Virus record (IMG/VR): IMGVR_UViG_3300047202_000060
Origin: a virus
Lineage: Duplodnaviria; Heunggongvirae; Uroviricota; Caudoviricetes
Direction: 5' to 3' (one strand)
DNA: 64,000 bases
The notes under the pieces were generated by a model, which saw nothing but the letters and a program-made list of their open reading frames with translations, made no database searches and had not been told where the DNA came from. Position numbers and translations under genes: made by a program. This document shows, piece by piece, positions 11,264 to 45,516 of this stretch (position 1 is the first letter of the stretch; each line of letters begins with the position of its first letter).

Positions 11264-11287
11264 ACTTATAAATCTTTCGGTTTGTAG
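11264..11287 (-). promoter_or_regulatory. TATA/BRE-like promoter
   Basis: aacttataaatctttcggtttgtagg, box 30 nt upstream of ATG 11235. Confidence 0.4.
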
Positions 11288-11298
11288 GAGTAGAGGGG

Positions 11299-14646: not shown

Positions 14647-14670
14647 CTAGTTACACTAGCTACATCGTGC

Positions 14671-14704
14671 TATTAAAACCTTTGCCTAGAACAACCATGC
14701 TTAG
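14671..14704 (-). promoter_or_regulatory. class I element copy
   Basis: tattaaaacctttgcctagaacaaccatgcttag; contains stop of 14701..14970. Confidence 0.4.
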
Positions 14705-14970: not shown

Positions 14971-15008
14971 TAGTAAATCACTTTGTTGTTAATAGAATAA
15001 CGCCGACT

Positions 15009-15043
15009 CTTATAAATCTTTAGGTAAAATCACCATGCTCGAT
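15009..15043 (-). promoter_or_regulatory. class I element copy encoding C-terminus of HNH-B gene
   Basis: cttataaatctttaggtaaaatcaccatgctcgat encodes IEHGDFT-stop. Confidence 0.4.
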
Positions 15044-15556: not shown

Positions 15557-15587
15557 TCTATTCACAAATAACAATAATGTGTTTCAG

Positions 15588-15609
15588 GCTTATAAATGTT
15601 TCGGTTAGC
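15588..15609 (-). promoter_or_regulatory. TATA/BRE-like promoter
   Basis: ggcttataaatgtttcggttagc. Confidence 0.4.
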
Positions 15610-15868
15610 AAACGTAACCTTTTAACTTCTCTTTCCTCTCAACGGGGTTTTCTACCATTTCTTCCGAAAATTCCAATTCATCCAAAGCCTGTTTTTCTGC
15701 ATTATATCGCGTACAAAAAATCGGGGTCGGGTTGTTGGCAATGAATAGAATCGCTGTTCCCTTCATTCTGTCAAGTTCTTCTTTCGGGTTCTTCTTTCTC
15801 TTCGAAGGTTCTATGTAAATTGACGACTCAATTGTTGGCATTTTACTTTCTCCAATGAATAACTCCAC
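15605..15868 (-). CDS. hypothetical protein
   Basis: 87-aa ORF. Confidence 0.4.
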   Translation of the reverse strand: MELFIGESKMPTIESSIYIEPSKRKKNPKEELDRMKGTAILFIANNPTPIFCTRYNAEKQALDELEFSEEMVENPVERKEKLKGYVC

Positions 15869-16242
15869 GTATGCAGATTAATTTTTCATCGTCAGGTATT
15901 TGTTTCATGTCTAGGATTTCCTTTATCCTTTCTATCTGTGCTTTATATGTTGGCATTTCATTCACCGCTAAGTTTTGCTTCCTGATTCCACGCTAGGTTG
16001 AACATTATTCTTTCGTCTTTGTCCAGCTTTTTCTCTGCTTGAACGTAAGCTGTCTGCTTGTCCTTTGCGTTCTCGAACCAATTGCGTTTTGTCGTCACGA
16101 TTTTATATTTAGGTTGTGGCATTATGTTTTCTCCCGTACTTCTTTAAGATTCGCTTTTTTATCTTTTCTGCATAATAAACAGCGACAACCATCGTACACA
16201 TAAATGCTACTGTGAGAAGTCCAGCTAAGATTTCTGTTTGCA

Positions 16243-16515
16243 TTATTTGTCCCTCTTTGCTTTTCCGCTTAAGTATTCTTCTTTCGTGGAAGTGAGATAA
16301 GACTCAAGTGTGTGGATAACCGTAACCGTTTTAACGACTCTCTGGTTACTTTCGAGATATTTTATCTTTTCAAGAACAGCTTTTCGCAACTCTTTTGGAT
16401 TTTTCCCGTAAGCATAAGTAGAAAATTCGTAGTCACTTCCCCCGTCTGCTTTTGGAATTAAGAAACGTATTTTTGCTTGCCACTTCTCATAAGTTTCTGT
16501 AATCATTTCAACCAT
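16243..16515 (-). CDS. hypothetical protein, first gene after class I element
   Basis: ATG 33 nt downstream of TTTATAA box. Confidence 0.5.
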   Translation of the reverse strand: MVEMITETYEKWQAKIRFLIPKADGGSDYEFSTYAYGKNPKELRKAVLEKIKYLESNQRVVKTVTVIHTLESYLTSTKEEYLSGKAKRDK

Positions 16516-16534
16516 CTGAGAAAGTATAGTATCG

Positions 16535-16573
16535 CCGTCCCTTATAAACGTTTGCCTAGAACACCCATGCTCG
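16535..16573 (-). promoter_or_regulatory. class I element, near-consensus copy
   Basis: ccgtcccttataaacgtttgcctagaacacccatgctcg. Confidence 0.45.
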
Positions 16574-16584
16574 TTTCGGGGTAG

Positions 16585-16600
16585 TTAAACAGTTGATTAA
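16585..16600. repeat. imperfect 16-bp palindrome TTAAACAGTTGATTAA
   Basis: one mismatch in left arm. Confidence 0.4.
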
Positions 16601-16825
16601 AATTTCTCAGGACAAGCCCCCCGCCCAACCTCGGCTTGGTATAGACGGTCTAGGTAAACTCTACCTTCTCTCGCTCACAACATATTTTTTTAAGTAAAAT
16701 CCATTCCCTATGATTGAGGGGTTCGTTTATCGTTCTTTCAATCATATTGTCAAAATATTCTACGTCATTTTTGTGTTTCTCAATGAAAAAACGAATTGTC
16801 CCTTCTGTAAGTCCATAAGTATTTT

Positions 16826-17122
16826 TCAAGTAAAGTTTACCTTCTCTGGGGTAACTTTGTGCTTTTCGTTAGGCAAATATTCCAGCGAAGTTATCAGTAT
16901 TTCTTTATCACAGTAATTCGCCAAATCTTGAAAGTGTTCTAGTTTGCTCTCGTCTATTTCGTCAAACGAACATGCCTCACGATTGCCGTCATCGTCTATA
17001 TAATCTGTTTCGAGAAGCATACAACAAAGTGGACAATCGGAAGAGCCAGCTACGATTCCTCTAAACTGAATCGCTAATGGGTCTTTAGATTCTTTAAGCC
17101 ATCTCAGACTTACTTTCTGCAT
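16826..17122 (-). CDS. hypothetical Cys-rich protein, EKVNFT tail
   Basis: CPLCCMLLETDY; cassette at 16840. Confidence 0.5.
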   Translation of the reverse strand: MQKVSLRWLKESKDPLAIQFRGIVAGSSDCPLCCMLLETDYIDDDGNREACSFDEIDESKLEHFQDLANYCDKEILITSLEYLPNEKHKVTPEKVNFT

Positions 17123-17194
17123 ATTGTTTTTCCCTCTCTATAATTATCTGGTATTCTTTCGCAGTTTTGAAATAGTAGTTGCTTATCTCTTCGC

Positions 17195-17428
17195 TCAAGT
17201 AAATTGCACCTTCTCAGGTACTATATCGTTTTTTAGTTCTCCTTTCCAAACAAGCCAAGTCGGATTATGTTCATTCGGATATTTTTCTTCTAATCTTTTT
17301 TGATTTTTTGCAAAAAACTTGTGCCAATAATTAACACATCTTTTGCAAAGAAAGGAATCAACGTGTCTGTCTTCTTTTTCGTTTGTCAAAAATTTTGCAC
17401 TACAATGCTCACAAGTTTTTTTTCTCAT
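17195..17428 (-). CDS. Zn-finger protein, EKVQFT tail
   Basis: CEHCSAKF...CKRCVNYWH. Confidence 0.5.
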   Translation of the reverse strand: MRKKTCEHCSAKFLTNEKEDRHVDSFLCKRCVNYWHKFFAKNQKRLEEKYPNEHNPTWLVWKGELKNDIVPEKVQFT

Positions 17429-17789
17429 TCCAACTTTTCTCCATTTCGATAATTGTCTGCCACTCTTTTGCCGTCTTGAAATAATAGCTACTTACTTCTT
17501 CGCTCAAGTAAATTGCACGACCTCTTTTCTAGGCACTTTACCCTTAATATCGCACACCGAATAGCTATCACATTTTTGACATTTACGTTCTGAATATTCT
17601 GTGCATACAATCACTTTCACAACGGTTATACCCGTTTTCAAGTTAGCTTGCATCTGCATTCTTCTCAACTGAACGACACCTTTTCTTTGTTCTCTAAGAT
17701 GTAGATTAAGGCTTGAGCAATTATTTCCTGATTAGTTTGAACATTTCCTGTCGGAATAGATTTTAGATTTCTGATTATTTGTTCTCGGT

Positions 17790-18065
17790 TCAAGTGAATT
17801 GCACAATCTCCTTTAGCGGTTTTCCAATCGGAATCCAGATTTGGTTTCCCCTAAGAAATAAATAAGATTGTCCATTAACAAACGCACAAACAAATTCGCC
17901 TTTATAATTGTTTCTCTTCCAACTTTCAAAACAGTCTTGGCAAATGTAATACATCCATCCATCTTTAACATAATGACGGGGCAATCCCGTATAAAGTGTG
18001 TTCTCTTTTTTCTCTACAATTTTCTCTTCCAAGTTTGTAGAACCACAAATAGGGCATCTGTTCAT
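17790..18065 (-). CDS. Zn-ribbon protein, paralog of 14093..14374, EIVQFT tail
   Basis: see 14093..14374. Confidence 0.55.
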   Translation of the reverse strand: MNRCPICGSTNLEEKIVEKKENTLYTGLPRHYVKDGWMYYICQDCFESWKRNNYKGEFVCAFVNGQSYLFLRGNQIWIPIGKPLKEIVQFT

Positions 18066-18222
18066 CCTATTATTCTCCTTTTTAATCCAAAATTAATGAA
18101 AGGCATATTTAGAAGGTAAAAAACGAATAGAAGAAACTCGGATTGAGTATAATAAGCAATACTATCGCTCACAATTAGAATCCATTCTTGATATACTTTC
18201 CAGAAATTCATTTTTCTCGCCT

Positions 18223-19083
18223 TTAGAGAAAGACCCGTTCAGCGTGAATATGTCCGTTTCCTTTACTGTCAAACTCGTAAGGTTTGCCCGACTGAACGAA
18301 TGCTGGAAAGTAGATTTTCATAGATTGTTCCGTGTTTTCTTTGTCAATCCACAGAAACTCACCTTTACGCAAACCCATAAGAGCGTTAACCACTCGTTCA
18401 CCCTTTTCTGTCCCGAACATACGCTTTAGCTTCTGCCTGTCGTTATCACCTGAGATTGAGCCAATAAGCATATATTTTGTACGCTCCACTATTCGAGTAG
18501 AAATATCGCTTAAACGTTGTCCTATTCCTATGAAGAATTGTCCGTAATTTCGACTTTCAGACCAAATCTTAAGCCAAAACTCAGATCGCTTATAGGAACC
18601 GAACAAGTTCTGAATCTCTTCAAGAACGTAAATTCGACTAAGTTTTGGTTGTCCGTTATTTTCGTTCATTGACTCTCGTTGAATATAGTAATCTTGCCCG
18701 ACCAAGTTTTCTATCAAGCTAACATTCATTGTTGTTGACACGAATCCCAAATCAAGCAGAACAATTTTTTCGTCCTCTGGAATACTAGGCTTCTTTGTTA
18801 CATCAACATAAGGTATTCGGTCAAATTTTTGCTTCCAAACGTTAGCAGAATCTCCTATACGAAGTATAACTTTTCCATCTTTGTATTTTTGTGAATTCAT
18901 TATGAATCTAACTATATGCATTGCAACAGTTGTCTTACCTGTGCCCCCCAAACCAATTATGAGCAGTTTTCCGTTCTCAGTCAAACTTTGCATTATGTTT
19001 TCAAGTAACTTTTCGCTCATTTTTTGAGCGTCAGATTGCTCAGATATTTCTATTGCAATTTTATTTTCGGTTTCTTCCGTCAT
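18223..19083 (-). CDS. P-loop NTPase (possible DNA-translocating or packaging-type ATPase)
   Basis: Walker A IIGLGGTGKTT; hydrophobic-D Walker B candidate VLLDLGF; 286 aa. Confidence 0.5.
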   Translation of the reverse strand: MTEETENKIAIEISEQSDAQKMSEKLLENIMQSLTENGKLLIIGLGGTGKTTVAMHIVRFIMNSQKYKDGKVILRIGDSANVWKQKFDRIPYVDVTKKPSIPEDEKIVLLDLGFVSTTMNVSLIENLVGQDYYIQRESMNENNGQPKLSRIYVLEEIQNLFGSYKRSEFWLKIWSESRNYGQFFIGIGQRLSDISTRIVERTKYMLIGSISGDNDRQKLKRMFGTEKGERVVNALMGLRKGEFLWIDKENTEQSMKIYFPAFVQSGKPYEFDSKGNGHIHAERVFL

Positions 19084-19089
19084 CTTTTA

Positions 19090-19278
19090 TCAAACCCATC
19101 TAATTTCGATTTCGACTTTGCAATTAGGACACCATTCGTGAGTTACATATATGTTTTTGTTAAGTGAATGTGGAAACCCGTTTTTCATTTCGAAAGCTGG
19201 AAGATCGTAATAGCATTTAGGGCAAATTAATTTTTTTGGTTCGTCTTTATATTGATATATTACTTCCATTTTAATCAC
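19090..19278 (-). CDS. Zn-ribbon protein
   Basis: CPKCYYD...CPNCK. Confidence 0.45.
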   Translation of the reverse strand: MIKMEVIYQYKDEPKKLICPKCYYDLPAFEMKNGFPHSLNKNIYVTHEWCPNCKVEIEIRWV

Positions 19279-19545
19279 CTAAAGTGGAATTGCTGTCGGA
19301 TAACCAGCAGAAGTTAATATTACGTTCATAATGTGTATTAGTACAAAAGCTAACATCGTTCCCCCAACAAGCCAAAAAACTGCAAGCTTCTTTGTGCGAA
19401 ACATGGAAAATCGCTCGTTATAGGCATCTCTAATAAGCATCTGTTTACGTAGTTTTTCTTCACGCTTCTGCACTTCATACTGAATATTAAAAGAAGTATC
19501 TGGACTAACACTCAAATCACGCATCTTTATTTTCTTCTTTGCCAT
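19279..19545 (-). CDS. small membrane protein
   Basis: C-terminal hydrophobic helix LAVFWLVGGTMLAFVLIHIMNVIL. Confidence 0.5.
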   Translation of the reverse strand: MAKKKIKMRDLSVSPDTSFNIQYEVQKREEKLRKQMLIRDAYNERFSMFRTKKLAVFWLVGGTMLAFVLIHIMNVILTSAGYPTAIPL

Positions 19546-19582
19546 ATTGTCAATCTACCCTAAGTTAATAATGGCATTTGTT

Positions 19583-19616
19583 CTATATAAACGTTTGCCC
19601 AAAATACCCATGCTCA
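19583..19616 (-). promoter_or_regulatory. class I element copy abutting junction cassette
   Basis: ctatataaacgtttgcccaaaatacccatgctca. Confidence 0.4.
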
Positions 19617-19829
19617 AGTAAACTGAACCTTCTCTTTGTCTTTCATTAGAAATTTTGAAAACTCTTTTTGCCATTCACTATCAGGTTTTCCACGAAGACT
19701 TGGTATTTTCTTATGCCATATTTTTTCGCATTCTGGACAAATATGAGTTGACGATACTATTCCACTATGATAAGAGAAATGTTCATTTACTCTTTCTCCT
19801 CTTCCGCATCTTCCGCAATATTCAGTCAC
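19614..19829 (-). CDS. Zn-ribbon protein, GTG start, EKVQFT tail
   Basis: CGRCGRGE...CPEC. Confidence 0.5.
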   Translation of the reverse strand: MTEYCGRCGRGERVNEHFSYHSGIVSSTHICPECEKIWHKKIPSLRGKPDSEWQKEFSKFLMKDKEKVQFT

Positions 19830-20002
19830 GTAAACTCGACCTTCACTTTCTCAAATGGCATTCGCGCAAAAGGACATTCAATTTCGCTGTCTGGAATATT
19901 TTCATATTGCATACACTTTTTCCCCTCTTTATGAGGACAATTAGGGGCAGTATTCTTGAAGTCACCACAATCAGGTATTAGCTCATGAAGAATACCCTTC
20001 AA
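19826..20002 (-). CDS. unannotated 58-aa Cys-rich protein, TTG start, EKVKVEFT tail
   Basis: LKGILHELIPDCGDF...CPHKEGKKC...ECPFARMPFEKVKVEFT. Confidence 0.4.
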   Translation of the reverse strand: MKGILHELIPDCGDFKNTAPNCPHKEGKKCMQYENIPDSEIECPFARMPFEKVKVEFT

Positions 20003-24605: not shown

Positions 24606-25029
24606 TTTTACAACTTCCTATCCACATTGAAAAAGCAATTTTAAATCTCAAAAATCTGTGAAGTGTTTTGTGACATTGATAACACAAAGGAATAAAGTCT
24701 TTTATGTGTTCCAAAATATATCTAGGCGAATTAATGTGGGGGTTCAAAGTTATGTCGTGAAAACATATTCGCTTTGGAGTTTCTCCACAAATAACACATT
24801 TTGTTCCCAGAACCTTTTTTATTTTTGTTCTGAGGTCATCTCTGTGTATTTTTGCGTGTTGACAAATTTGTATCTTGTTGTCTTTGTAATATTTCTGTTT
24901 TTCTTTATGAGTCTGATTTTTATGAGTGTCCCTATATTCTTTCATTTTCTTCAAAATAATGGTTCTGTTTTTGTAATAGGATTTTAGAGTTACAGTATTA
25001 TGTCTTAGTCTTTTCTCTTCTTGATTCAT
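24583..25029 (-). CDS. HNH endonuclease family A
   Basis: VLGTKCVICGE...NSPRYILEHIKDFIPLCYQCHKTLH; basic N-terminus. Confidence 0.6.
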   Translation of the reverse strand: MNQEEKRLRHNTVTLKSYYKNRTIILKKMKEYRDTHKNQTHKEKQKYYKDNKIQICQHAKIHRDDLRTKIKKVLGTKCVICGETPKRICFHDITLNPHINSPRYILEHIKDFIPLCYQCHKTLHRFLRFKIAFSMWIGSCKNGNKTET

Positions 25030-25216: not shown

Positions 25217-25651
25217 TTATAGTTTAATCCCCCTTTTATCTGCCTCAATCCATTCGTGACATTTTTGACATACAGTAACTATTATTAACGGATAATCGTA
25301 GTCTGGGTGATGGTGTTCGAGATTTATGGTTTGTCTGTCATCTTCGGGGCAAAGTTCACATTCCTTTTCTAAAGGAACATTTCTCTTTGCCTTTAATCGT
25401 GCATTCTGTTTAAGATGGTTTCGTTTTGCATAAGCGTTAGCTAATTCCCGAACTTTATATGGGTTTTCTTCTTTCCACTTTGCTCGTCCTTTTCGATAAA
25501 TTTCTGGATTAGCTAATCTATACTGTTTTTCCTCTTCCTTATGCTCGGCGTATCGCTTTTTTCTATATGCTCTTTCCTGTGGTTTATGGGTTAATCTGTA
25601 TAATCTATGTCTTTCTCGTTCTTTTGCCCTAAATTCTTCGTCCGCGTTCAA
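25217..25651 (-). CDS. HNH endonuclease-like (divergent) with basic repeat N-terminus
   Basis: CELCPEDDRQTINLEHHHPDYDYP...VCQKCHEWIE. Confidence 0.5.
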   Translation of the reverse strand: MNADEEFRAKERERHRLYRLTHKPQERAYRKKRYAEHKEEEKQYRLANPEIYRKGRAKWKEENPYKVRELANAYAKRNHLKQNARLKAKRNVPLEKECELCPEDDRQTINLEHHHPDYDYPLIIVTVCQKCHEWIEADKRGIKL

Positions 25652-29115: not shown

Positions 29116-29745
29116 TTATTTGTTACTTATAAACTTTGCCCCAGAACTATCGTGCTCGATTAACCACTCGAACGCTTTATCGTTTATCTCGAACATACCA
29201 CGACCAGACCAGATATTATGACGAATTGAATTATGAAGTTTTTCGGGAATATAGACTACACACTCAAAGTCAATATGGTGTCCGTGGGAACCTTCGAATG
29301 GTTCATTAAGAAAATCGTGCCCTAGACCACGGCGTTTATACTTTTGTTTTCTAGTTTGTTTTCCTCTCCATTCTGGATGGTTTTTACGCCAATTTGTCGT
29401 CCTTTGGTCACACTCTTCTTTATGAGCGTTATAATATTGGGTTTTAGATTTTTTATCATGAAGTTTTAATTCTTCTGGGGTTAATCTTTTTAGTGGATGT
29501 GGACGATAACTCTTTTTATGATTTCTCTTATTAGATTCTCTAACCTTTTCGGGATTATTTTTTCGCCAATTTCTCAGCATAATCCTTTTTTGTTCTGGAT
29601 GATTCCTCTTCCATTTTATACTCCGTTGTTTGCATTCTTCTTTGTGAGTTTCATAATAGTGTTTTGTCCATTGCCTTTTATGTTGTTTTAGTTCTTCTTC
29701 TGTAAAGATTTTTCTAACAAATTGACCTTTAGAATTTCTACCCAT
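29116..29745 (-). CDS. HNH endonuclease family B with basic repeats
   Basis: GLGHDFLNEPF..HGHHIDFECVVYIPEKLHNSIRHN..AFEWLIEHDSSGAKFISNK; C-terminus encoded by class I element. Confidence 0.65.
   Translation of the reverse strand: MGRNSKGQFVRKIFTEEELKQHKRQWTKHYYETHKEECKQRSIKWKRNHPEQKRIMLRNWRKNNPEKVRESNKRNHKKSYRPHPLKRLTPEELKLHDKKSKTQYYNAHKEECDQRTTNWRKNHPEWRGKQTRKQKYKRRGLGHDFLNEPFEGSHGHHIDFECVVYIPEKLHNSIRHNIWSGRGMFEINDKAFEWLIEHDSSGAKFISNK
29126..29158 (-). promoter_or_regulatory. class I element copy inside HNH-B 3' end
   Basis: cttataaactttgccccagaactatcgtgctcg. Confidence 0.4.
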
Positions 29746-30545: not shown

Positions 30546-30583
30546 CGTCCTATATAAACGTTTACTAAGAAACACCATGCTCA
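30546..30583 (-). promoter_or_regulatory. class I element, near-consensus
   Basis: cgtcctatataaacgtttactaagaaacaccatgctca; provides TGA stop of 30581..30898 and box 34 nt upstream of 30516. Confidence 0.45.
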
Positions 30584-30898
30584 GGGATTCCAATACTTAT
30601 CATCAACACTATCTAATAAAGTAGAAACATAATCGTCTATTATTCTCTCGATAACATAATGAATCATTTCGTGATTAATGGTACTGACTACGTGTTTAGG
30701 TGTTGTTTTTCCGTAAATATACATACCGTTTTTAGTATCAGTAGTACCAAGAGAAGAACAATAAAAGTTATTCCATTCCCATCTTGAAACAGAAACCCTC
30801 TTTGTCCTAAATCGTTTTCTTGCAATCTCAAGCGTCACAAACCCATCGAAAATATCTACCCTTTTAGGATAATAGAAGTGAAATTCCCTTCGACCCAA
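30581..30898 (-). CDS. mini HExxH metalloprotease-like protein (paralog set of four)
   Basis: TINHEMIHYVIER. Confidence 0.45.
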   Translation of the reverse strand: MGRREFHFYYPKRVDIFDGFVTLEIARKRFRTKRVSVSRWEWNNFYCSSLGTTDTKNGMYIYGKTTPKHVVSTINHEMIHYVIERIIDDYVSTLLDSVDDKYWNP

Positions 30899-30901: not shown

Positions 30902-31435
30902 TTAACTCTTCCTTATATATTTTTGCATCTCTTCTGTTGTTCCCTTTCGAATCTCACCGTTCTTTTCCATTATTGAGTACGCCCAGACATCAAGTTGCAT
31001 TAAATCAACTTTGTTTCCCAAGCACCATTCAAGAGCCGAGAAAACAATTGGTCTTTCCATACTGTCATATTCGTCAGATTCCAAAAGCCAGCGTTTGCCT
31101 TTAGGATATTCATAGGCATACTTCTCATCCCAGATATTGCGAATAACAACTTTCCATCTTTTAGGAAGAGGAATATCTTTCGGCAAGTAAGCAAACTTTG
31201 TTCCTTCCATCCCGATAAACATCGTTCGGTTAATCGGATTCCAATAGCATCGAGTAATATCTCCCTTTCTGTTACGTCCTTCATGAGTATATTTCTCCCA
31301 GAGTCTAGCTTCAAACAAGCGTACCTCAATCACATCTTCTTTTGTCACCGACTTAAAAGCTTTTATTGCATCCTCTTTAGAGAGACTTGAGGGAACGAGA
31401 ACGTTATGAATATTCAGAGTAACCATACTTATCAT
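30902..31435 (-). CDS. hypothetical protein
   Basis: 177 aa; ATG 28 nt downstream of TTTATAA box lying inside upstream HNH ORF; antisense ORF 31000..31329 judged spurious. Confidence 0.5.
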   Translation of the reverse strand: MISMVTLNIHNVLVPSSLSKEDAIKAFKSVTKEDVIEVRLFEARLWEKYTHEGRNRKGDITRCYWNPINRTMFIGMEGTKFAYLPKDIPLPKRWKVVIRNIWDEKYAYEYPKGKRWLLESDEYDSMERPIVFSALEWCLGNKVDLMQLDVWAYSIMEKNGEIRKGTTEEMQKYIRKS

Positions 31436-31958
31436 CTTTGTAAGAAGAATAGTTATCGTCCCTTATAAACGTTGTCCCAGAACCATCGTGTTCGTTTTCT
31501 GGGTGATGAAGTTCTCTATGACATCTGCAACAGAGAAGTTGTATTTTACCATCTAAAACCAATTTAAGAAAAACTTTTGTCATATATAAATTACAATCAT
31601 CATGTTTTTCCTTAGTTTTTGGGTCAAGATGGTGAAATTCGAATACTGCCAAACAACCAATATATCCACATTTTTGACATTTGCCACCGAGTAATTTTAT
31701 CAACTCTTTTTTTCGTTTGTGTTTTCTCCCGATAACATATTCTCTAACCCATTTTTTGTTTCTTTTCTGCCAACATCTTTGTGATTCACGAACTTTCTCC
31801 AAATTGTTTAAACGATATTTTCTTCTATTTTGTGCAACTTTTTCTTTATTATTTTCATTCCACTTCTTTGACCTACAATTTTTAGAACAATATTGTTGTA
31901 TTCTATGATAATATGGATTCTGAATAAATTCTGTGCCACACACTTTACATTTTGGCAT
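31404..31958 (-). CDS. HNH endonuclease family A with N-terminal Zn ribbon and basic repeats
   Basis: MPKCKVCG...CSKNC; LLGGKCQKCGY...FHHLDP...LLCCRCHRELH; NEHDGSGTTFIRDD encoded by class I element. Confidence 0.6.
   Translation of the reverse strand: MPKCKVCGTEFIQNPYYHRIQQYCSKNCRSKKWNENNKEKVAQNRRKYRLNNLEKVRESQRCWQKRNKKWVREYVIGRKHKRKKELIKLLGGKCQKCGYIGCLAVFEFHHLDPKTKEKHDDCNLYMTKVFLKLVLDGKIQLLCCRCHRELHHPENEHDGSGTTFIRDDNYSSYKDDKYGYSEYS
31457..31494 (-). promoter_or_regulatory. class I element copy embedded in-frame in HNH ORF
   Basis: cgtcccttataaacgttgtcccagaaccatcgtgttcg. Confidence 0.4.
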
Positions 31959-32008: not shown

Positions 32009-32542
32009 TCAACTAACGTAATCCTTACTTGCATCCGAATATCCGCAATTTTTACATTGAAACCCATATCGAGTTATAATCATTGTTCCTTTACACTTAG
32101 GACACGCCCTCGTCCAAACATCAACATTGAAAATATTAGACTTATTAGATTTTCTTTGCCGTGATGGTATTTGTTGCTTATCGAAGTCGCCTAACGCAAA
32201 CTTCTTGTGTGCATCCGATTCTTCTTGTTTCTCTAATACATTAGTATGAGAACCATAAAAAATTTTACAATGTTCCTTCCACTCTTTATCTGTCATACTT
32301 TCTGGGTCTTGTTTATTAGTAGATGAATCGCTTACTTCAAATATATAAGTGAAAAATGCTATTACAAAACATCCAACACCTAACCATGTAAAAACATCAG
32401 AAATATGTATTTTGTTTTGGGCATCTCTAAATCCAGCTTCCGAATTTACTGCACTATTTACATCCCAAGATACCATAGCTATCATAGCTATAAGGAAGCA
32501 CAACATCCCCAGACCACATATTATTGGTGTTATTTTCATCAT
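32009..32542 (-). CDS. membrane protein with C-terminal Zn ribbon
   Basis: two N-terminal TM helices; CPKCKGT...CKNCGY. Confidence 0.5.
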   Translation of the reverse strand: MMKITPIICGLGMLCFLIAMIAMVSWDVNSAVNSEAGFRDAQNKIHISDVFTWLGVGCFVIAFFTYIFEVSDSSTNKQDPESMTDKEWKEHCKIFYGSHTNVLEKQEESDAHKKFALGDFDKQQIPSRQRKSNKSNIFNVDVWTRACPKCKGTMIITRYGFQCKNCGYSDASKDYVS

Positions 32543-32667
32543 CTATCTCTCCTATGTGCGCTTGCTTTCATTTCTCGTGCTATGTAGATGTCTAAGCATT
32601 CTTTGTAGTGACCGCATGAACCGTCACAGGTAGATTTCAAATCTCCTAAACATTTAGGATTATCCAT
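32539..32667 (-). CDS. unannotated 42-aa Cys-rich leader ORF
   Basis: MDNPKCLGDLKSTCDGSCGHYKEC; AGGAGA SD for next gene inside its 3' end. Confidence 0.3.
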   Translation of the reverse strand: MDNPKCLGDLKSTCDGSCGHYKECLDIYIAREMKASAHRRDR

Positions 32668-32696
32668 ATCATTCACTACCTAGAAGTATAGCTCCC

Positions 32697-32731
32697 CCCT
32701 ATATAAAGTTTGCCCCAGAAACACCACGCCC
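32697..32731 (-). promoter_or_regulatory. class I element copy preceded by poly-G
   Basis: cctatataaagtttgccccagaaacaccacgccc. Confidence 0.4.
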
Positions 32732-32797
32732 AAAACCCTATGGGTATCGCTGGTTTGCATGGACTTTCCCATCACCTCACCCATACTTTGCTCTTTT

Positions 32798-32813
32798 TTA
32801 ATCAGTTGATTAA
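32798..32813. repeat. 16-bp palindrome TTAATCAGTTGATTAA
   Basis: inverted repeat copy. Confidence 0.55.
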
Positions 32814-32916
32814 ATATACGATTCCCGTGTATGTCGCTTCCAAACTACTTCGAACTTTTTCGTTCACCGCAACCTTTATAAGTCGCCATCTCAACCAGCT
32901 TATTTAGTGATAGAGA

Positions 32917-33240
32917 ATGCTTCGATATTGGATAAATCGTTGGCGAAAAATCGGATTGAAAGTTAGCAAACGATTCGAAGGAAGAACAAAAGAGATGCAA
33001 ATTCTTGGTTCTATTATCGGAAAAAAATGTAAAATATGTGGAAGAATGAAAAATATAAGATACCACGAAATTCATGGAAAAAAACACGAACATTCTACAA
33101 GATATATTCTTAATCACGCTTTAGATTTTGTTCCTTTATGCCAAAGGTGTCATAGTACACTTCATTATGCTAAAAGAGTTGAGAAATTGCCCGAAATTCG
33201 CCGAAAGAGATTAGTTCGATTGCTTTCGATTTTAACTTGA
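32917..33240 (+). CDS. HNH endonuclease family A, plus-strand insertion
   Basis: CKICGRMKNIRYHEIHGKKHEHS..LDFVPLCQRCHSTLH. Confidence 0.6.
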   Translation: MLRYWINRWRKIGLKVSKRFEGRTKEMQILGSIIGKKCKICGRMKNIRYHEIHGKKHEHSTRYILNHALDFVPLCQRCHSTLHYAKRVEKLPEIRRKRLVRLLSILT

Positions 33241-33690
33241 TGGACTTTTAACGATGGCAGGAACGCCCGCCTTTCAATCTGCCCCGAAATTTACTCTGAT
33301 TGTCAAGTTCGATTCAGTTCGGTAGTCAGATGGCTCTCACCCAACCCCTCGACAGGGTAGCTTGGATTTTTAATCAGGTGATTAATAGTTGAACTTTCAG
33401 TTGTAAAAAAAGTGTAACTAAAAAGGTCACGCAAAAAAACCCCAGAAAAAAAACCTTGAGGCTCACTCGACTTTTACATAAAGCGCACATAGGCGAAAAA
33501 TGACATAAAATTTGTTTTTGGTAGCCAGTTTTTTTTCGGCGGCTTTTGGCACGGGTTCCGAGCCGTTTTCGTTTCTCCGTTTCAGCGGTCTCTCAAACCA
33601 AATTACTAAGATTCTCGGAAAAGAAAATAATGGAAAACGTCTTTTTTGCCAGCGGTTTTTAGCCTCTAGGGGAAGCTCTAGGTAGGGGAG
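33241..33690. other. 450-nt ORF-free region with GC-rich islands and poly-A/T runs; candidate origin or non-coding RNA locus
   Basis: no ORF of 60 aa or more on either strand; strand switch; GC islands gccagttttttttcggcggcttttggcacggg and ttgccagcggtttttagcc. Confidence 0.3.
33370..33385. repeat. 16-bp palindrome TTAATCAGGTGATTAA
   Basis: inverted repeat copy. Confidence 0.55.
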
Positions 33691-33975
33691 TCATTGCCAT
33701 ATTTCCCTTAATATCTCGTGGTAGTACAATCCGAGACTCTCTAAGTATCTGTCGTATTTTTTAGGTTTTGTCTTGCTCATGTTAGTAATTATCCAATGAA
33801 GAAACTCATGGTTGAGAACACAACACATATCTTCTACACTAAGCCATTTTTCTTGGTCGGTAATCTCCATTTTTGCAGAACCTTTCTTAACCCATATCTT
33901 GGCGCGCCTGTGATTTTTAGGCGTACTCTTTCTCACTTTAATAACGAGATTGTCTAGGTTTATCTCTTCGGTCAA
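33691..33975 (-). CDS. mini HExxH metalloprotease-like protein
   Basis: VLNHEFLHWIITN; junction cassette at 33965. Confidence 0.45.
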   Translation of the reverse strand: MTEEINLDNLVIKVRKSTPKNHRRAKIWVKKGSAKMEITDQEKWLSVEDMCCVLNHEFLHWIITNMSKTKPKKYDRYLESLGLYYHEILREIWQ

Positions 33976-34135: not shown

Positions 34136-34516
34136 TCAAGTAAACTGCACCTTTTCCCGAACAAACTCTTCTTTTGAAGACATCTTTAGGACTTTGGAAA
34201 ATCCTCTAACAGAATGTGGTCTGTTTGAAATCCCATTAGGAACAATACTTTCTATCATTATTTCACCACAAACAGTTTCTACTAATGGCTTTCCGTTTTC
34301 CTTTGCTGTATATTCAATATAAAGCCTAAACTTTGAGTTCTTTTGCCAAGCCTTATATAGACTCGAAACATCGTCCATATCGAGAAAGATTTCCCATTCG
34401 TCACAACCAACAGGGACGGGAAAACTCATCGCTTTCTTAATTGACATCTCTACTGCTACAACACTATCAAATTTCTTCTTACCCTGAGCCAGATAAGCCT
34501 TTGTAAGTTTACTCAA
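34136..34516 (-). CDS. hypothetical protein, EKVQFT tail
   Basis: 126-aa ORF. Confidence 0.5.
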   Translation of the reverse strand: MSKLTKAYLAQGKKKFDSVVAVEMSIKKAMSFPVPVGCDEWEIFLDMDDVSSLYKAWQKNSKFRLYIEYTAKENGKPLVETVCGEIMIESIVPNGISNRPHSVRGFSKVLKMSSKEEFVREKVQFT

Positions 34517-34646
34517 GTGAACTGCACCTTTATACGCCGTCTAAATTTCTTTGCTTGTTTTATCCATTTCCTTCTTCTACAAAGTAACCGCATATATTCT
34601 TCTACATCATCAAAAACATCAATATATGAATCATTAGGGATTTCTC

Positions 34647-34895
34647 TCATGTGAATTGCACCTTCTCCTTCTCTGGTGGAAATGCCAATTCAAAACTTTT
34701 CAAATATTTTATCGTTGTATAATTAAGATGATGACATTTTGGACATTCATAAATAAAGATTGATTCCCAATTACGACCTACCTCTTCTCCAATGGCAACC
34801 ATCTTTTCACTATCATAAGGACAAATACAAAACTCATCCATATCTACATTCAAGTAAACTGCACCTTCACAGGTTTCTTCTGTTCTTCTTTCCAC
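34647..34895 (-). CDS. Zn-ribbon protein, EKVQFT tail
   Basis: CICPYD...CPKCHH. Confidence 0.5.
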   Translation of the reverse strand: MERRTEETCEGAVYLNVDMDEFCICPYDSEKMVAIGEEVGRNWESIFIYECPKCHHLNYTTIKYLKSFELAFPPEKEKVQFT

Positions 34896-35501: not shown

Positions 35502-35746
35502 GTGAACGACACCTTCATGGGTCTATTTATTCTTTTCACAGTCACCTTTAGACCTAGATAATTCGATAAATACATTGAGTGTTCATACGCATCATCATCA
35601 CAAAATTGGGCGGTATTAAGTTTTCCTTGTATTTGATAGAAAAAAACGAACTCTGCCTCTTTAGGGCATTGGTCGTTATGACCGTGCATTGCTATACATC
35701 TAACTGGTCCATTTTTTCTTATGCTATCAATAATTGTTCCTATCAA
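35498..35746 (-). CDS. hypothetical protein, MKVSFT tail
   Basis: 82-aa ORF. Confidence 0.5.
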   Translation of the reverse strand: MIGTIIDSIRKNGPVRCIAMHGHNDQCPKEAEFVFFYQIQGKLNTAQFCDDDAYEHSMYLSNYLGLKVTVKRINRPMKVSFT

Positions 35747-36036
35747 GTGAATTGCACCTTTTCCTGTTTTTTATCTAAGGTTGTTATAACTGGAATAGTT
35801 TCTGTTGGTGCTCGAACATCTGGATATTCTTTACTCTCGACAACTACGTATAAAATTGCCCTCATATAGTTGTGCGTTATTTCGACAACTTTAGCATCTG
35901 CTGGGAACCTGTTCTCTATAATCATGAAATTGTCTTTGCCATTATGACTAACAAAACTTTGCATTGAACGTTTGGTAGGCTTTAATCCCATATCTTCACA
36001 AGAACAATCTAAGAAAGGCATAAAAACTCTTCTCAT
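35743..36036 (-). CDS. hypothetical protein, EKVQFT tail
   Basis: 97-aa ORF. Confidence 0.5.
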   Translation of the reverse strand: MRRVFMPFLDCSCEDMGLKPTKRSMQSFVSHNGKDNFMIIENRFPADAKVVEITHNYMRAILYVVVESKEYPDVRAPTETIPVITTLDKKQEKVQFT

Positions 36037-36236: not shown

Positions 36237-36616
36237 TGTTCTTTTAATCTACAAGAGTTTATACAGTATTTTTCCTTATCACTCGAATCATGTACTGTGC
36301 ATCCAGAAATACGCCAATCATTTTTTACAACTTTATAATGTATCAAGTAAATTGTACCTTCTCATTTTCTTCTATTTTTATCAAATGCTTCTTTTCTTTT
36401 TCTCCATAATGGTTAATTTGAGCCTTTGTTCCATGAGCACAAAATAATCTGCCAAACTTATCAGACTTTATTACGCATCCTTTGACAGTAAATGTGCAAC
36501 AAGTACATCTATAAGTTGTCATGTAAATTGAACCTTCTCTCTTTGATAATGTTTAGCAAGCCGTCTAAACCAGCGAAGCCGCCTGAAAATAAGTGGGTAG
36601 TTTATATCCTTTCTCA

Positions 36617-38017: not shown

Positions 38018-38046
38018 TTTACATCTGGGAATACTAAGGCGAACCA

Positions 38047-38081
38047 CCTATATAAACTTTGCGCTAGAACCACCTTACTCA
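38047..38081 (-). promoter_or_regulatory. class I element copy
   Basis: cctatataaactttgcgctagaaccaccttactca. Confidence 0.4.
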
Positions 38082-38181
38082 TTTTTCCGCAACCTTTATA
38101 AGGTAGAGTTGACTACTTGTGCGTTAGTGCGGGCATTAAGATTTTTTTTCAATGCATGGTCCCCGCCACACGAACGAATTT

Positions 38182-38197
38182 TTAATCATCTGATTAA
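38182..38197. repeat. 16-bp palindrome TTAATCATCTGATTAA
   Basis: inverted repeat copy. Confidence 0.55.
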
Positions 38198-38250
38198 AAG
38201 AATTCATGGTTAATGCCTATTTACACCTTTCGCAACCTTAATAAGCAACC

Positions 38251-38694
38251 TCATAAAATATTAACAATGTGATTCTTTTTCTCAAGAACAAACTTGACTA
38301 CAAAATGCCACTTCTTTGCAATTACATCATAGACATAGAATGACTTATGAATGTTATCAAGAGCCTTTTTAGTTTCACGCCCTTCAATGTTATTCAGCAC
38401 TTGATGAAGAACTTCATGCTCAAGAATCTCTTCTGCACATTCCGCATAATCCTCACATTCTGGACGAGCAAAAAGTTTTATTTGAAAAAATCCCGTATAG
38501 CCACCCGCAACACAATCCTTAAAATATATATTAATTTCGGATTTATTACAAATCCCTACATAGATTCCTACAGAGTTTTCTTTTGTTATAGCAGATTTGA
38601 TTTTTAGCCAATAATCTCGAAAAGCGGGTAAGGAAACACGTATAAAATCAAATAGAACCCGTTTCTTTCTCTTTAAATCTGTCATTTCTACCAA
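38251..38694 (-). CDS. mini HExxH metalloprotease-like protein
   Basis: EILEHEVLHQVLNN. Confidence 0.45.
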   Translation of the reverse strand: MVEMTDLKRKKRVLFDFIRVSLPAFRDYWLKIKSAITKENSVGIYVGICNKSEINIYFKDCVAGGYTGFFQIKLFARPECEDYAECAEEILEHEVLHQVLNNIEGRETKKALDNIHKSFYVYDVIAKKWHFVVKFVLEKKNHIVNIL

Positions 38695-41223: not shown

Positions 41224-41687
41224 TATTTCTCATTCCTCACTTTAGATTCTCTTAATCTCGTTATATCATTCCAAGAAAGACCCAAAAATCTCATACAAAA
41301 ATGGGTGAAACTATGACAAGACTTGCATAGTGGAGCAAAATCTTCTTGATGGTTTATTATGTATAATCTTGAAGAACTATGAGGATTTCCGTGTATTTCG
41401 TGAGCGTGTATTCTGTAATTATTTGGACTATACCCACAAATCAAGCATTTATTCCCCAAAAGCGAGACAATTTTTTTATTATACTTCTCGTTAGTTCTTC
41501 TTGCATTTATACGATGCCGCTCTAAATAACGAATTCTATGATTGGCATCGTAAGATTCTGTCCTCTTTCTTTTACAATCTTTACAAAGATATTCATAATT
41601 TCGTTTTCTGTATTCTGTCCAGTTTGTTCCTAAGATAAGGGCACACCCACAATCCTTGCATTTGTCTTCACGCCATTTATTTGCCAT
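41223..41687 (-). CDS. HNH endonuclease family A with N-terminal Zn ribbon
   Basis: CKDCGC...CKDCKRK; LLGNKCLICGY..HAHEIHGNPH..DFAPLCKSCHSFTH. Confidence 0.6.
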   Translation of the reverse strand: MANKWREDKCKDCGCALILGTNWTEYRKRNYEYLCKDCKRKRTESYDANHRIRYLERHRINARRTNEKYNKKIVSLLGNKCLICGYSPNNYRIHAHEIHGNPHSSSRLYIINHQEDFAPLCKSCHSFTHFCMRFLGLSWNDITRLRESKVRNEK

Positions 41688-45307: not shown

Positions 45308-45343
45308 CTCTATTTAAACTTTGCGTAAGAAAGACTATGCTCA
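45308..45343 (-). promoter_or_regulatory. class I element copy abutting junction cassette
   Basis: cctctatttaaactttgcgtaagaaagactatgctca, box 32 nt upstream of 45278. Confidence 0.4.
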
Positions 45344-45516
45344 AGTAAACTGCACCTTCACTTTAGCATTTTTAGGTCCGAAATAATATTTCTCAAACAT
45401 TATCTTTACACACCTGTCCATCTTCAATCTTTTACCCTCTCCAAATGAATGAATTACAGCTTCGACATATCTCGTATGCCATTTTATCTTTTTCATAAGC
45501 ATAGCAATCGATTCTG

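What the first reader, a model, noticed from the sequence alone, without database searches (positions are those of the whole stretch)
32697..33690. The only strand switch is a plus-strand HNH gene followed by a 450-nt ORF-free region
HNH 32917..33240 is on the opposite strand from all neighbours. It is bracketed by palindrome copies (32798, 33370). It is followed by 450 nt without ORFs, containing GC-rich islands in an AT-rich background and long A/T runs. This looks like an independent mobile insertion beside a replication origin or ncRNA locus.
Basis: inference. Interest (0 to 1): 0.55.

Follow-up and report, generated by a model that had tools for sequence, protein, structure and literature searches.

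The report
Palindrome-bounded HNH nuclease gene cassette
A small HNH nuclease gene sits backwards, between two copies of a regulatory palindrome, at an operon boundary of an uncharacterised ~150-kb virus-like genome; relatives carry it intact, decayed, flipped or precisely deleted, so it behaves as a selfish optional cassette, and nothing supports a replication origin or structured RNA beside it.

Summary
A 107-aa HNH-type ORF lies on the + strand (32917-33240), palindrome copies lie at 32798 and 33370, and about 450 nt with long A/T runs lack a conserved ORF. It is not the only strand switch: a second + strand HNH gene lies at 138-473. The palindrome TTAATCANNTGATTAA is a window-wide intergenic motif (15 perfect copies) that precedes a 40-nt promoter-like motif. 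It is not a private terminal repeat.

Related contigs show four states of the segment between the two palindromes:
- intact and inverted (window, L040, L051);
- intact and co-oriented (L041);
- ORF deleted, leaving a remnant (L063-65, L067, L068, L070);
- absent, with a single palindrome left, in an otherwise identical sequence (L066).

The ORF has its own BRE/TATA-like promoter motif, and dN/dS is 0.11-0.16. I read it as a free-standing, homing-endonuclease-like HNH cassette that recombines at the palindromes.

The stretch 33386-33690 is a conserved inter-operon module with oligo-T tracts on both strands, short conserved boxes and one hypervariable segment. It gave no Rfam hit, no folding or covariation signal, no promoter motif and no skew inflection. 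The origin and ncRNA ideas are unsupported, though not strictly excluded.

The parts
32697..32736 (-). Class-I promoter-like motif (GAGCATG-like box, TTCT, GCAAA-NN-TTTATATAGG) serving the next minus-strand operon, whose start codon is GTG at 32676.
   Evidence: The PWM built from 16 other sites scores it 29.1, rank 17. About 24 sites stand clear of background, and 23 of them are on the minus strand. The sequence is homologous in L064, L066 and L051.
32798..32813 (.). Palindrome copy 1 (TTAATCAGTTGATTAA). It is the left boundary of the HNH cassette.
   Evidence: In L066 a single palindrome joins the two flanks directly.
32846..32857 (+). Conserved box TACTTCGAACTT (partly palindromic CTTCGAAG) between the palindrome and the HNH promoter. 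It may be an operator.
   Evidence: It is present at the same relative position in the window, L040, L051 and L041. Its function is inferred.
32868..32885 (+). Promoter-like BRE/TATA motif of the HNH gene (CGCAACCTTTATAAGTCG), 34 nt before the ATG. It lacks the upstream GAGCATG/TTCT box of class-I sites.
   Evidence: It ranks 18 on the core PWM with a score of 16.3 and was not in the training set. An identical 16-mer lies at 38087-38102. It is conserved in L040, L051 and L041.
32917..33240 (+). HNH-type nuclease ORF of 107 aa. It is a minimal member of a family with at least 9 paralogues in the window.
   Evidence: phrog_8048 E=5.9e-6. The Cys/His pattern is invariant. dN/dS is 0.11-0.16 against L040 and L051. 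The Foldseek top hits are all HNH nucleases but are not significant. Paralogues.
33241..33366 (+). Conserved 3' element. Its core (33283-33325) is a degenerate direct repeat of the HNH 3' coding end (33190-33232). It ends in a T5 run that abuts the palindrome.
   Evidence: Repeats D7 and D13. It is conserved in L040, L041, L064 and L069, and is kept in L064 where the ORF is deleted. It is absent from L051. It is not a stable fold (z=+1.29).
33370..33385 (.). Palindrome copy 2 (TTAATCAGGTGATTAA). It is the right boundary of the cassette.
33386..33404 (+). Scar. Relative to L040 and L064 the window lacks 46 nt just after the palindrome. Those 46 nt carry a + strand promoter motif (CGAAAGGTTTATATGG) that precedes a 27-aa ORF in those relatives. 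A further 37 nt of that ORF are also missing.
   Evidence: Alignments A1 and A5. The ORF comparison gives 5 synonymous and 5 non-synonymous codon differences.
33405..33453 (-). Cluster of oligo-T tracts on the transcribed minus strand (T7, T5, T7, T8). It is the probable termination zone for the upstream operon of small genes.
   Evidence: Three of the window's eleven A>=7 runs lie here. The same order, T-run then palindrome then promoter, recurs at other gaps. The terminator role is inferred.
33483..33521 (.). Two conserved boxes: GCGCACATAGGCG, and AAAATTTGTTTTTGG with a T5 run on the + strand.
   Evidence: They are invariant or nearly so in 5 lineages.
33524..33602 (.). Hypervariable segment. 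It is about 50% GC here and in L051, and 24-30% GC and unalignable in L040, L064 and L069.
   Evidence: Two independent contigs that are 100% identical to the window end at 33517 and 33519.
33606..33647 (.). Most conserved non-coding box (CTAAGATTCTCGGAAAAGAAAATAATGGAAAACGTCTTTTTT). It has T-tracts on both strands and may be a bidirectional terminator.
   Evidence: It is almost invariant in 5 lineages, although synonymous divergence of the adjacent HNH gene is dS 0.66-0.90. Its function is inferred.
33666..33691 (.). G-rich (C-rich on the minus strand) conserved box ending in GGTAGGGGAGT. It follows the stop codon of whichever gene ends the upstream operon.
   Evidence: It is conserved although the adjacent gene differs: a 94-aa HExxH protein here, a transglutaminase-core gene in L040 and L051, and a 62-aa gene in L064 and L069.

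Best explanation
What the genome's punctuation looks like. The window comes from a large, one-strand-coded, virus-like genome; relatives assemble to about 152 kb. Its operon boundaries are standardised. Read along the coding strand, each has a gene end, one or more oligo-T tracts, the palindrome TTAATCANNTGATTAA, about 15-20 nt, a 40-nt promoter-like motif (GAGCATG-N4-TTCT-N2-3-GCAAA-NN-TTTATAAGG), about 32 nt, and then the start codon.

What sits at this boundary. A roughly 590-bp cassette lies between two palindrome copies (32798-33385). It contains a short leader with a conserved box, its own BRE/TATA-like promoter motif, a 107-aa HNH nuclease gene, and a conserved 3' element that echoes the gene's 3' end. 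The gene is under purifying selection where it is intact. It is dispensable for the genome.

How I think it works.
- It is a free-standing, homing-endonuclease-like selfish gene. It persists by nuclease-promoted recombination between co-infecting genomes (inferred).
- It is lost by decay and by recombination between the flanking palindromes (shown by comparing L064 with L066).
- Because the flanking repeat is its own reverse complement, recombination at the palindromes can delete or invert the cassette. That would explain why the gene runs against all its neighbours here and with them in L041 (inferred).

The ORF-free stretch to its right (33386-33690) is not part of the cassette. It is a conserved inter-operon module where the upstream operon of tiny genes and the convergent HNH transcript most likely terminate. 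It has oligo-T tracts on both strands and short conserved boxes of unknown binding function. It also carries one fast-evolving spacer and the scar of a small + strand transcription unit (a promoter motif plus a 27-aa ORF) that relatives retain.

The promoter motif resembles an archaeal BRE/TATA element. Sigma-70 promoter patterns and hairpin terminator patterns are not enriched. The host is therefore probably archaeal, or the element uses its own polymerase. This point is an inference.
For: Shown:
- Strand layout: 103 minus-strand against 36 mostly overlapping plus-strand ORFs of 80 aa or more.
- Palindrome: 17 copies against 0.15 expected, 15 of them perfect, and 11 of 17 in gaps that make up 7.8% of the window.
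- Extended promoter motif: about 24 sites, 23 on the minus strand, lying 29-38 nt before start codons.
- HNH promoter motif at 32868-32885 (+), and a class-I motif at 32697-32736 (-).
- HNH assignment.
- Purifying selection, dN/dS 0.11-0.16.
- Same layout in L040 and L051. The cassette is co-oriented between palindromes in L041.
- The homologue P0004 ends in the operon junction peptide EKVQFT, so it is co-oriented.
- Remnant cassette without the ORF in L063-65, L067, L068 and L070. Empty site with one palindrome in L066, which is 100% identical to L064 over the 432-nt adjacent module.
- Second + strand HNH at 138-473, and at least 9 HNH paralogues in the window.
- The module's boxes are conserved in 5 lineages despite dS of 0.66-0.90 in the neighbouring gene.
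- A/T-run cluster.
- No enrichment of sigma-70 promoter patterns (57 against 54.4 expected) or hairpin terminator patterns (15 against 13.2).
- The KaiC-like ATPase, RNA ligase and PAPS-reductase-like ORFs score best against NCBIfam models that, as I recall, are built mainly from archaeal proteins; all of these hits fall below their family cut-offs.
Against: - No event of gain was observed. The L064 to L066 difference is a loss, and the opposite orientation in L041 could reflect one old inversion of a resident gene.
- The protein is only 107 aa, with no recognisable DNA-binding domain for a long homing site.
- Pfam does not reach threshold for HNH. The structure model is mediocre (pLDDT 66.8), and the structural matches are not significant.
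- The 3' element is conserved even where the ORF is gone. A pure relic would not be, so it has a function I cannot name.
- The module's conserved boxes are more specific than termination by T-tracts alone would need.
- The terminator and promoter roles rest on motif position only. There are no transcript data.
- The host domain is not established: no CRISPR or provirus link was found.
Confidence: 0.6

Rival explanations
1. The HNH gene is a resident accessory gene, for example a nuclease used in host DNA degradation, recombination or regulation, and not a selfish mobile one. Its odd orientation would come from a single palindrome-mediated inversion, and its absence in some relatives from ordinary gene loss.
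For: - Purifying selection with dN/dS 0.11-0.16.
- The gene sits at the same locus in four lineages.
- Only loss and inversion are documented.
- The protein is tiny and has no extra DNA-binding domain.
- The family is expanded to at least 9 mostly co-oriented copies, which could be functional paralogues.
Against: - Both clear + strand genes of the window are HNH nucleases sitting inside regulatory gaps.
- The series intact, decayed and absent within near-identical genomes is the classic pattern of homing-endonuclease turnover.
- It has its own promoter, of a different class from the operon promoters.
Confidence: 0.2
2. The ORF-free stretch 33386-33690 encodes a functional non-coding or antisense RNA. 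It would be transcribed from the + strand, here by read-through from the HNH gene and in relatives from the promoter next to the palindrome.
For: - Relatives L040, L064 and L066 carry a good + strand promoter motif next to the palindrome, pointing into this region.
- Several boxes are conserved in 5 lineages.
- A + strand T6-T8 tract closes the most conserved box.
- A similar ORF-less + strand promoter motif lies at 38088-38105.
Against: - No Rfam match.
- Folding is no better than shuffled sequence on either strand.
- The covariation term is positive.
- The window has lost that promoter, and no promoter motif lies inside the region.
- L051 lacks about 220 nt of the region.
- In relatives the promoter is followed at the usual spacing by a 27-aa ORF, so it may serve a tiny protein gene and not an RNA.
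Confidence: 0.15
3. The ORF-free stretch is a replication origin: initiator-binding boxes flanking an unwinding segment.
For: - It is a conserved non-coding island between variable flanks.
- Conserved boxes flank a segment that is AT-rich in three of five lineages.
- It is the largest non-coding region of the window.
Against: - Cumulative GC skew shows no inflection.
- No iterons or repeated boxes were found.
- The central segment is about 50% GC in the window and L051.
- No initiator-like gene was found among the neighbours.
- L051 tolerates a 220-nt deletion.
Confidence: 0.08
4. The HNH gene and the adjacent non-coding DNA form a packaging site, like the HNH proteins that assist terminase at cos sites in HK97-like phages. 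On this view the contig ends at 33517 and 33519 mark a physical genome end.
For: - Two independent contigs end within 2 nt of each other.
- A small HNH protein lies next to a non-coding region.
Against: - Other assemblies, including L036, read straight through the site.
- Relatives give contigs of 151,787 and 151,756 bp with the module about 35-41 kb from an end and with different start points.
- The HNH gene is absent or decayed in those relatives.
- The 20 neighbouring or larger ORFs scanned with PHROGs gave no terminase or portal hit.
- The contig ends coincide with the start of the hypervariable segment, which explains the assembly breaks.
Confidence: 0.03

Closest known systems
Free-standing HNH homing endonuclease genes of large phages (for example the T4 mob genes and I-HmuI-like genes of SPO1-type phages; from my own knowledge)
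   Same: - A small nuclease gene is inserted in an intergenic or regulatory gap.
- It has its own promoter.
- It can lie against the local gene direction.
- There are many copies per genome.
- It is present, decayed or absent among close relatives.
   Different: - Only 107 aa, with no recognisable DNA-binding module.
- No cleavage or homing was shown.
- The cassette is bounded by a window-wide palindromic regulatory motif, not by unique flanking genes.
- Orientation differs between lineages.
Homing-endonuclease life cycle (invasion, fixation, degeneration, loss; Goddard and Burt model, from my own knowledge)
   Same: Intact genes under purifying selection, an ORF-deleted remnant and a clean empty site are all seen at one locus.
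   Different: The invasion step is not observed. Loss here occurs by recombination between two identical 18-nt palindromes.
HK97 gp74-type packaging HNH proteins
   Same: A very small HNH protein lies next to a non-coding stretch.
   Different: No terminase or portal was found among the neighbours scanned. The gene is dispensable in relatives. Contigs read through the site.
Archaeal BRE/TATA promoters and oligo-T terminators (from my own knowledge)
   Same: - GCAAA or CGAAA, then 2 nt, then TTTATA(A/T)AGG at a fixed 29-38 nt before start codons.
- T5-T8 tracts at operon ends.
- No enrichment of sigma-70 or hairpin-terminator patterns.
   Different: A long extra upstream box (GAGCATG-N4-TTCT) and a palindrome accompany most sites. 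The host is not identified. No transcription start sites were mapped.
Boundary or linker sequences that promote module exchange in phage genomes (for example promoter-early stem-loops in T4-like phages; from my own knowledge)
   Same: Short repeated regulatory sequences at gene or operon borders coincide with the end points of insertions, deletions and rearrangements between relatives.
   Different: The motif here is a perfect 7+7 palindrome with a 2-nt centre, which allows both deletion and inversion.

Membership tests
Free-standing HNH homing endonuclease gene | HNH (beta-beta-alpha-metal) nuclease domain with catalytic His and zinc-binding Cys pairs | tested here: met
   phrog_8048 E=5.9e-6. 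CxxC...YHEIHG...H...DFVPLCxxCHxxxH is invariant in 5 homologues. Caveats: Pfam is below threshold, and the structural hits are all HNH nucleases but have E>=0.24.
Free-standing HNH homing endonuclease gene | Presence/absence polymorphism at one locus among related genomes, with a clean empty site | tested here: met
   L066 has a single palindrome and no cassette, and is otherwise identical to L064. L064-type contigs carry an ORF-less remnant. The window, L040 and L051 carry the intact gene.
Free-standing HNH homing endonuclease gene | Independent expression signals | tested here: met
   A promoter motif lies at 32868-32885 (+), 34 nt before the ATG, core PWM rank 18. It is conserved in relatives. 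This is motif evidence only.
Free-standing HNH homing endonuclease gene | Site-specific cleavage of the endonuclease-free allele and biased inheritance | not testable with these tools
   This needs enzymology and co-infection crosses.
Free-standing HNH homing endonuclease gene | Additional DNA-binding module that gives long target recognition | tested here: not met
   The protein is 107 aa, the nuclease core spans roughly residues 36-85, and no other domain was found.
Structured non-coding RNA | Match to a described RNA family | tested here: not met
   There were no hits at gathering threshold in the whole window. Only chance-level hits (E of 3 or more) appeared in 32400-33900.
Structured non-coding RNA | Thermodynamic stability above shuffled controls, and compensatory base changes | tested here: not met
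   z = +0.45 (+ strand), +0.18 (- strand) and +1.29 (3' element). The covariation terms are +1.45 and +2.08 for the module and -0.77 for the 3' element. Only 3-5 sequences were available, so power is low.
Replication origin | Strand-composition inflection at the site | tested here: not met
   Cumulative GC skew falls steadily from 0 to -10 across the window, with no turn at 33 kb. Caveat: with all genes on one strand, skew mostly tracks transcription.
Replication origin | Repeated initiator-binding boxes flanking an AT-rich unwinding element | tested here: not met
   No repeated boxes were found beyond the palindrome and homopolymer runs. The central segment is about 50% GC here.
Transposon or insertion sequence | Transposase gene and element-specific terminal inverted repeats | tested here: not met
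   The only ORF is the HNH gene. The flanking palindrome is a window-wide motif with 15 perfect copies.
HK97 gp74-type packaging HNH | Adjacency to terminase and portal genes and to the genome end; indispensability | tested here: not met
   No terminase or portal hit appeared among the 20 neighbouring or larger ORFs scanned with PHROGs. The gene is absent from related contigs of about 152 kb.

The most novel reading that the evidence does not exclude
The palindrome TTAATCANNTGATTAA may not only be an operator next to promoters. It may also be the recognition or recombination site of the expanded HNH family. On that reading this virus lineage would carry an orientation-agnostic cassette system: nuclease genes and neighbouring gene blocks are inserted, flipped and deleted at a regulatory palindrome found across the genome, and this drives the strong mosaicism seen between relatives. 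A weaker variant is that the conserved module at 33386-33690 is the replication origin or a new RNA locus of a novel archaeal virus group.
Probability: 0.12. Interest if true: 0.6.

Novelty: new member of a known kind. Interest (0 to 1): 0.38.

Why it matters
The HNH cassette itself is an ordinary kind of selfish gene. Three things make the locus useful.

- It gives a clean natural series at one site: intact, decayed, deleted and flipped. The break points lie exactly at a palindromic regulatory motif. This makes it a testable case of how short palindromes at operon borders shape gene order and orientation in a large virus genome.
- It exposes the transcription punctuation (palindrome, 40-nt promoter motif, oligo-T tracts) of a virus-like lineage. 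That lineage has no match among 50,697 annotated phage records for the locus DNA or the two proteins tried. It is probably archaeal.
- It removes an attractive but unsupported origin/ncRNA annotation.

Tried and rejected
- Rfam scans of the whole window at gathering threshold and of 32400-33900 at E<=10 gave nothing credible. The tRNA scan found none.
- blastn of the locus against phage records found no match. tblastn of the HNH protein and of the KaiC-like ATPase against the same records found no match.
- The search for related loci with the 177-aa left-flank protein found no relatives in IMG/VR.
- The junction-motif scan of IMG/VR gave only single chance hits. The same scan of 185,579 genomes also gave only single chance hits, so there is no host clue.
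- Scans of IMG/VR with two conserved non-coding boxes returned two spurious coding hits, L060 and L061. I at first misread L060 as a contig end and then discarded it.
- Coding potential of 33386-33690: the 57-aa + ORF and the 43-aa - ORF are interrupted in relatives.
- Idea of a target-site duplication from the 9-mer ATGGACTTT at 32759 and 33240: about 2.7 such repeats are expected by chance in 1.2 kb, so I rejected it.
- Idea of a genome terminus or cos site from the contig ends at 33517 and 33519: rejected. The ends coincide with the start of the hypervariable segment, other assemblies read through, and related contigs of about 152 kb do not end here.
- Borg-like element: rejected, because pervasive tandem repeats are absent.
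- The PDB sequence search with the HNH profile gave no significant hit. The literature search found nothing on this lineage.
- The 81-aa 'gene' called in L063, L064, L067, L068 and L070 is spurious. It translates the palindrome and the promoter.
Full report
**1. Setting**

The window is about 35% GC and is coded almost entirely on the minus strand. There are 103 minus-strand ORFs of 80 aa or more. The 36 plus-strand ORFs of that size mostly overlap them. No tRNA and no Rfam family at gathering threshold were found. The locus has no DNA match in 50,697 phage records, and two of its proteins have no protein match there.

Recognisable genes include a KaiC/RadA-like ATPase, a PAPS-reductase-like protein, an RNA ligase, a UDP-GlcNAc 2-epimerase, glycosyltransferases, and Kelch and InlB-repeat proteins. 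An identical HNH protein is recorded on a 140,745-bp contig. Close relatives assemble to 151,787 and 151,756 bp with different start points. That suggests a circular or permuted genome of about 152 kb.

**2. Checking the observation**

- The + strand ORF 32917-33240 (107 aa) is real. It is HNH-like, with phrog_8048 at E=5.9e-6 and an invariant CxxC...YHEIHG...DFVPLCxxCHxxLH pattern.
- Pfam gives only a sub-threshold hit. An AlphaFold model is mediocre (pLDDT 66.8). Its best PDB matches are all HNH nucleases (Cap5, T4 endonuclease VII, Gme HNH, GVE2 HNH) but none is significant.
- Against the homologues in L040 and L051 the gene has dN/dS of 0.11-0.16 with dS of 0.66-0.90. It is therefore a maintained protein-coding gene.
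- The palindromes at 32798 and 33370 are real.
- The stretch 33241-33690 has no ORF of 60 aa or more, and its two short ORFs are broken in relatives.
- A/T runs are enriched about five-fold. Three of the window's eleven A>=7 runs lie in 33405-33453. GC alternates between 23% and 60%.
- The claim of a single strand switch is wrong. A second + strand HNH gene of another subfamily lies at 138-473 (phrog_2255, E=7.8e-13) inside another intergenic gap.

**3. The palindrome and the promoters are window-wide punctuation**

TTAATCANNTGATTAA occurs 17 times at up to 2 mismatches against 0.15 expected. Fifteen copies are perfect, and 11 of the 17 lie in gaps that make up 7.8% of the window.

Read on the coding strand, a palindrome is typically preceded by a T-run. 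About 15-20 nt after it comes a long motif, GAGCATG-N4-TTCT-N2-3-GCAAA-NN-TTTATAAGG, which ends 29-38 nt before a start codon.

A PWM built from 16 sites finds about 24 sites that stand clear of background, 23 of them on the minus strand. The site 32697-32736 (-) ranks 17th and lies directly upstream of the GTG at 32676. The ORF-free region is therefore not the leader of the downstream genes.

The HNH gene has only the core BRE/TATA-like part, CGCAACCTTTATAAGTCG at 32868-32885 (+), 34 nt before its ATG. It lacks the upstream box. An identical 16-mer lies at 38087-38102 (+) with no ORF behind it.

Sigma-70-type promoter patterns and hairpin-plus-T terminator patterns are not enriched. The motif resembles archaeal BRE/TATA promoters (my own knowledge). 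Several ORFs score best against NCBIfam models that, as I recall, are built mainly from archaeal proteins; all of these hits fall below their family cut-offs. I infer a probable archaeal host, but no host link was found.

**4. Comparative evidence for a cassette**

Homologues of the HNH protein and of the 94-aa right-flank protein gave related contigs.

- L040 (82% aa identity) and L051 (84%) have the window's layout: minus-strand genes on both sides, the divergent promoter region, a + strand HNH gene, and then an ORF-free stretch.
- In L041 (67% identity) the same unit lies in the same direction as its neighbours. The unit is palindrome, about 55 nt with a TACTTCGA box, CCGCAA-NN-TTTATAAG, the HNH gene, the 3' element and a second palindrome. 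The ORF-free, T-rich stretch is on the promoter-proximal side and a class-I promoter is on the distal side. Relative to the functional flanks, the segment between the palindromes is inverted.
- The homologue P0004 ends with the operon junction peptide EKVQFT, which again implies co-orientation.
- L063-65, L067, L068 and L070 keep two identical palindromes 333 nt apart. The segment between them retains the 3' element and a degenerate piece of the HNH 3' end and promoter but has lost the ORF. The 81-aa gene called there merely translates the palindrome and the promoter.
- L066 is 100% identical to those contigs over the adjacent 432 nt. It has one palindrome that joins the two flanks directly. 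This is a precise deletion between the two palindrome copies.

Intact, decayed, absent and flipped states thus all occur at one site, with the end points at the palindromes. The window also holds at least 9 paralogues of this HNH family. Several of them are the last gene before a palindrome.

**5. The 3' element**

The core of the 3' element (33283-33325) is a degenerate direct repeat of the gene's own 3' coding end (33190-33232). Both have the form CCCGAAATT...AGTTCGATT...TTCG.

It is conserved in the window, L040, L041, L064 and L069, even where the ORF is gone. L051 has deleted it, together with the palindrome and the A-runs. It does not fold better than shuffled sequence (z=+1.29). I regard it as a cis element of unknown role, not a simple relic.

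**6. The ORF-free module 33386-33690**

Five distinct versions (window, L040, L051, L064-type, L069) share several short boxes:
- an A-run/T-run box;
- GCGCACATAGGCG;
- AAATTTG-TTTTGG;
- the about 42-nt box CTAAG...GGAAAAGAAAATAA...AAACGTCTTTTTT;
- GGGTAGGGGAGT, next to the stop codon of whichever gene ends the upstream operon.

The roughly 80-nt segment 33524-33602 is unalignable between types. Two contigs that are 100% identical to the window stop at 33517 and 33519, just before that segment, while L036 reads through. The right-flank proteins of the window were not found in those two samples. The breaks therefore reflect strain mosaicism and not a physical end.

The flanking genes differ between lineages. 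A transglutaminase-core gene is inserted in L040 and L051. The genes downstream of the locus in L051 and L041 correspond to window positions of about 17.4-13.8 kb.

Tests for RNA structure were negative on both strands. No promoter motif lies inside the region, no repeats suggest iterons, and GC skew has no inflection.

Relatives L040, L064 and L066 carry, next to the palindrome, a + strand promoter motif (CGAAAGGTTTATATGG). At the usual spacing it is followed by a 27-aa ORF (MxQKVTLxVTSK..TRKRVTQKNL) with 5 synonymous and 5 non-synonymous codon differences. The window has lost the promoter (46 nt) and part of that ORF (37 nt).

The simplest reading is a convergent termination and insulation zone, with T5-T8 tracts on both strands and some protein-binding boxes, which also carries decayed remnants.

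**7. Verdict**

The origin/ncRNA idea is unsupported. The cassette is a new member of a known kind, the free-standing HNH endonuclease genes.

The more interesting points are the palindrome as the recombination boundary and the regular punctuation of a previously undescribed, probably archaeal, virus-like lineage. Main uncertainties are the nuclease activity and target, the role of the 3' element and the conserved boxes, the host, and the lack of any transcript data.

Noticed in passing
window, minus strand, 34 sites (e.g. 34136-34153, 34513-34530, 34850-34867, 35743-35760, 36343-36360, 45341-45358): The gene-junction motif AAGGTNCARTTYACNTGA occurs 34 times against 0.2 expected, always on the minus strand. 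It makes dozens of tiny genes end in ...(E)KVQFT*, with a Shine-Dalgarno-like AGGTG and a stop codon that overlaps the next start (TTGA/ATGA/GTGA). Gene order in this small-gene operon is shuffled between the window, L040 and L051, so the motif may also serve as a recombination linker.
   Followed up: partly
window 138-473 (+): A second + strand HNH endonuclease gene (111 aa, phrog_2255 E=7.8e-13) has its own TATA-like box at about 95-105. It lies antisense between a class-I promoter and palindrome (485-537) and whatever that promoter serves.
   Followed up: partly
window 2868-3356, 4134-4844, 7959-8438, 10804-11235, 24643-24951, 25256-25642, 29116-29745, 41274-41516 (all -): The family of HNH nucleases with the YHEIHG...DF[VI]PLC..CH signature is expanded. 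Most members carry a K/R/E/Y-rich N-terminal extension. There are at least 9 tblastn hits in 64 kb, and a distinct HNH lies at 31404-31958. Three further copies lie on one IMG/VR contig (L047-L049).
   Followed up: partly
window 38048-38250: A second divergent promoter gap holds a class-I motif on the minus strand (38046-38085) and a + strand motif identical to the HNH promoter (38088-38105). The latter is followed by about 45 nt, a T8 run and a palindrome (38182), but no ORF. Another + strand motif lies at 38231-38248. This may be a short non-coding transcript or an emptied cassette site.
   Followed up: no
window 10246-10803: This gap holds three palindromes (10246, 10313, 10694) and the only + strand class-I promoter motif (10391-10430). 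A 42-aa + ORF (10466-10594) follows 36 nt later. It may be another small reverse-oriented unit.
   Followed up: no
window 33691-33975, 30581-30898, 38251-38694 (all -): Three small proteins (94, 105 and 147 aa) each carry an HExxH motif (HEFLH, HEMIH, HEVLH) and have no family match. The first and third are the last gene before an operon boundary, and the second is the first gene after a promoter motif. They may be a paralogous minimal metalloprotease-like family.
   Followed up: no
L040 980-1642 and L051 3558-4241: Relatives carry a transglutaminase-core gene of 220-227 aa inserted exactly between the conserved GGGTAGGGGAGT box and the orthologue of the 94-aa gene. The box and the stop-codon context are preserved. 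This is another sharp module boundary.
   Followed up: partly
L040 649-732; L064 (reverse strand) about 4759-4842: A conserved 27-aa basic micro-ORF lies on the strand opposite to all neighbours. It has its own promoter motif next to the palindrome. It is present even in the HNH-free L066 and is mostly deleted in the window.
   Followed up: partly
L063-L065 (contigs of 86,048, 151,787 and 151,756 bp): Two independent assemblies of almost the same length place this locus at different coordinates (about 41.5 kb and 34.8 kb). This suggests complete circular or circularly permuted genomes of about 152 kb.
   Followed up: no
window 1-20000 (and the motif sites window-wide): Sigma-70-type promoter patterns and hairpin terminator patterns are at chance level. 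A BRE/TATA-like motif at fixed spacing from start codons is highly over-represented. TTG and GTG start codons are very frequent. Together these hint at an archaeal host or a dedicated polymerase.
   Followed up: partly
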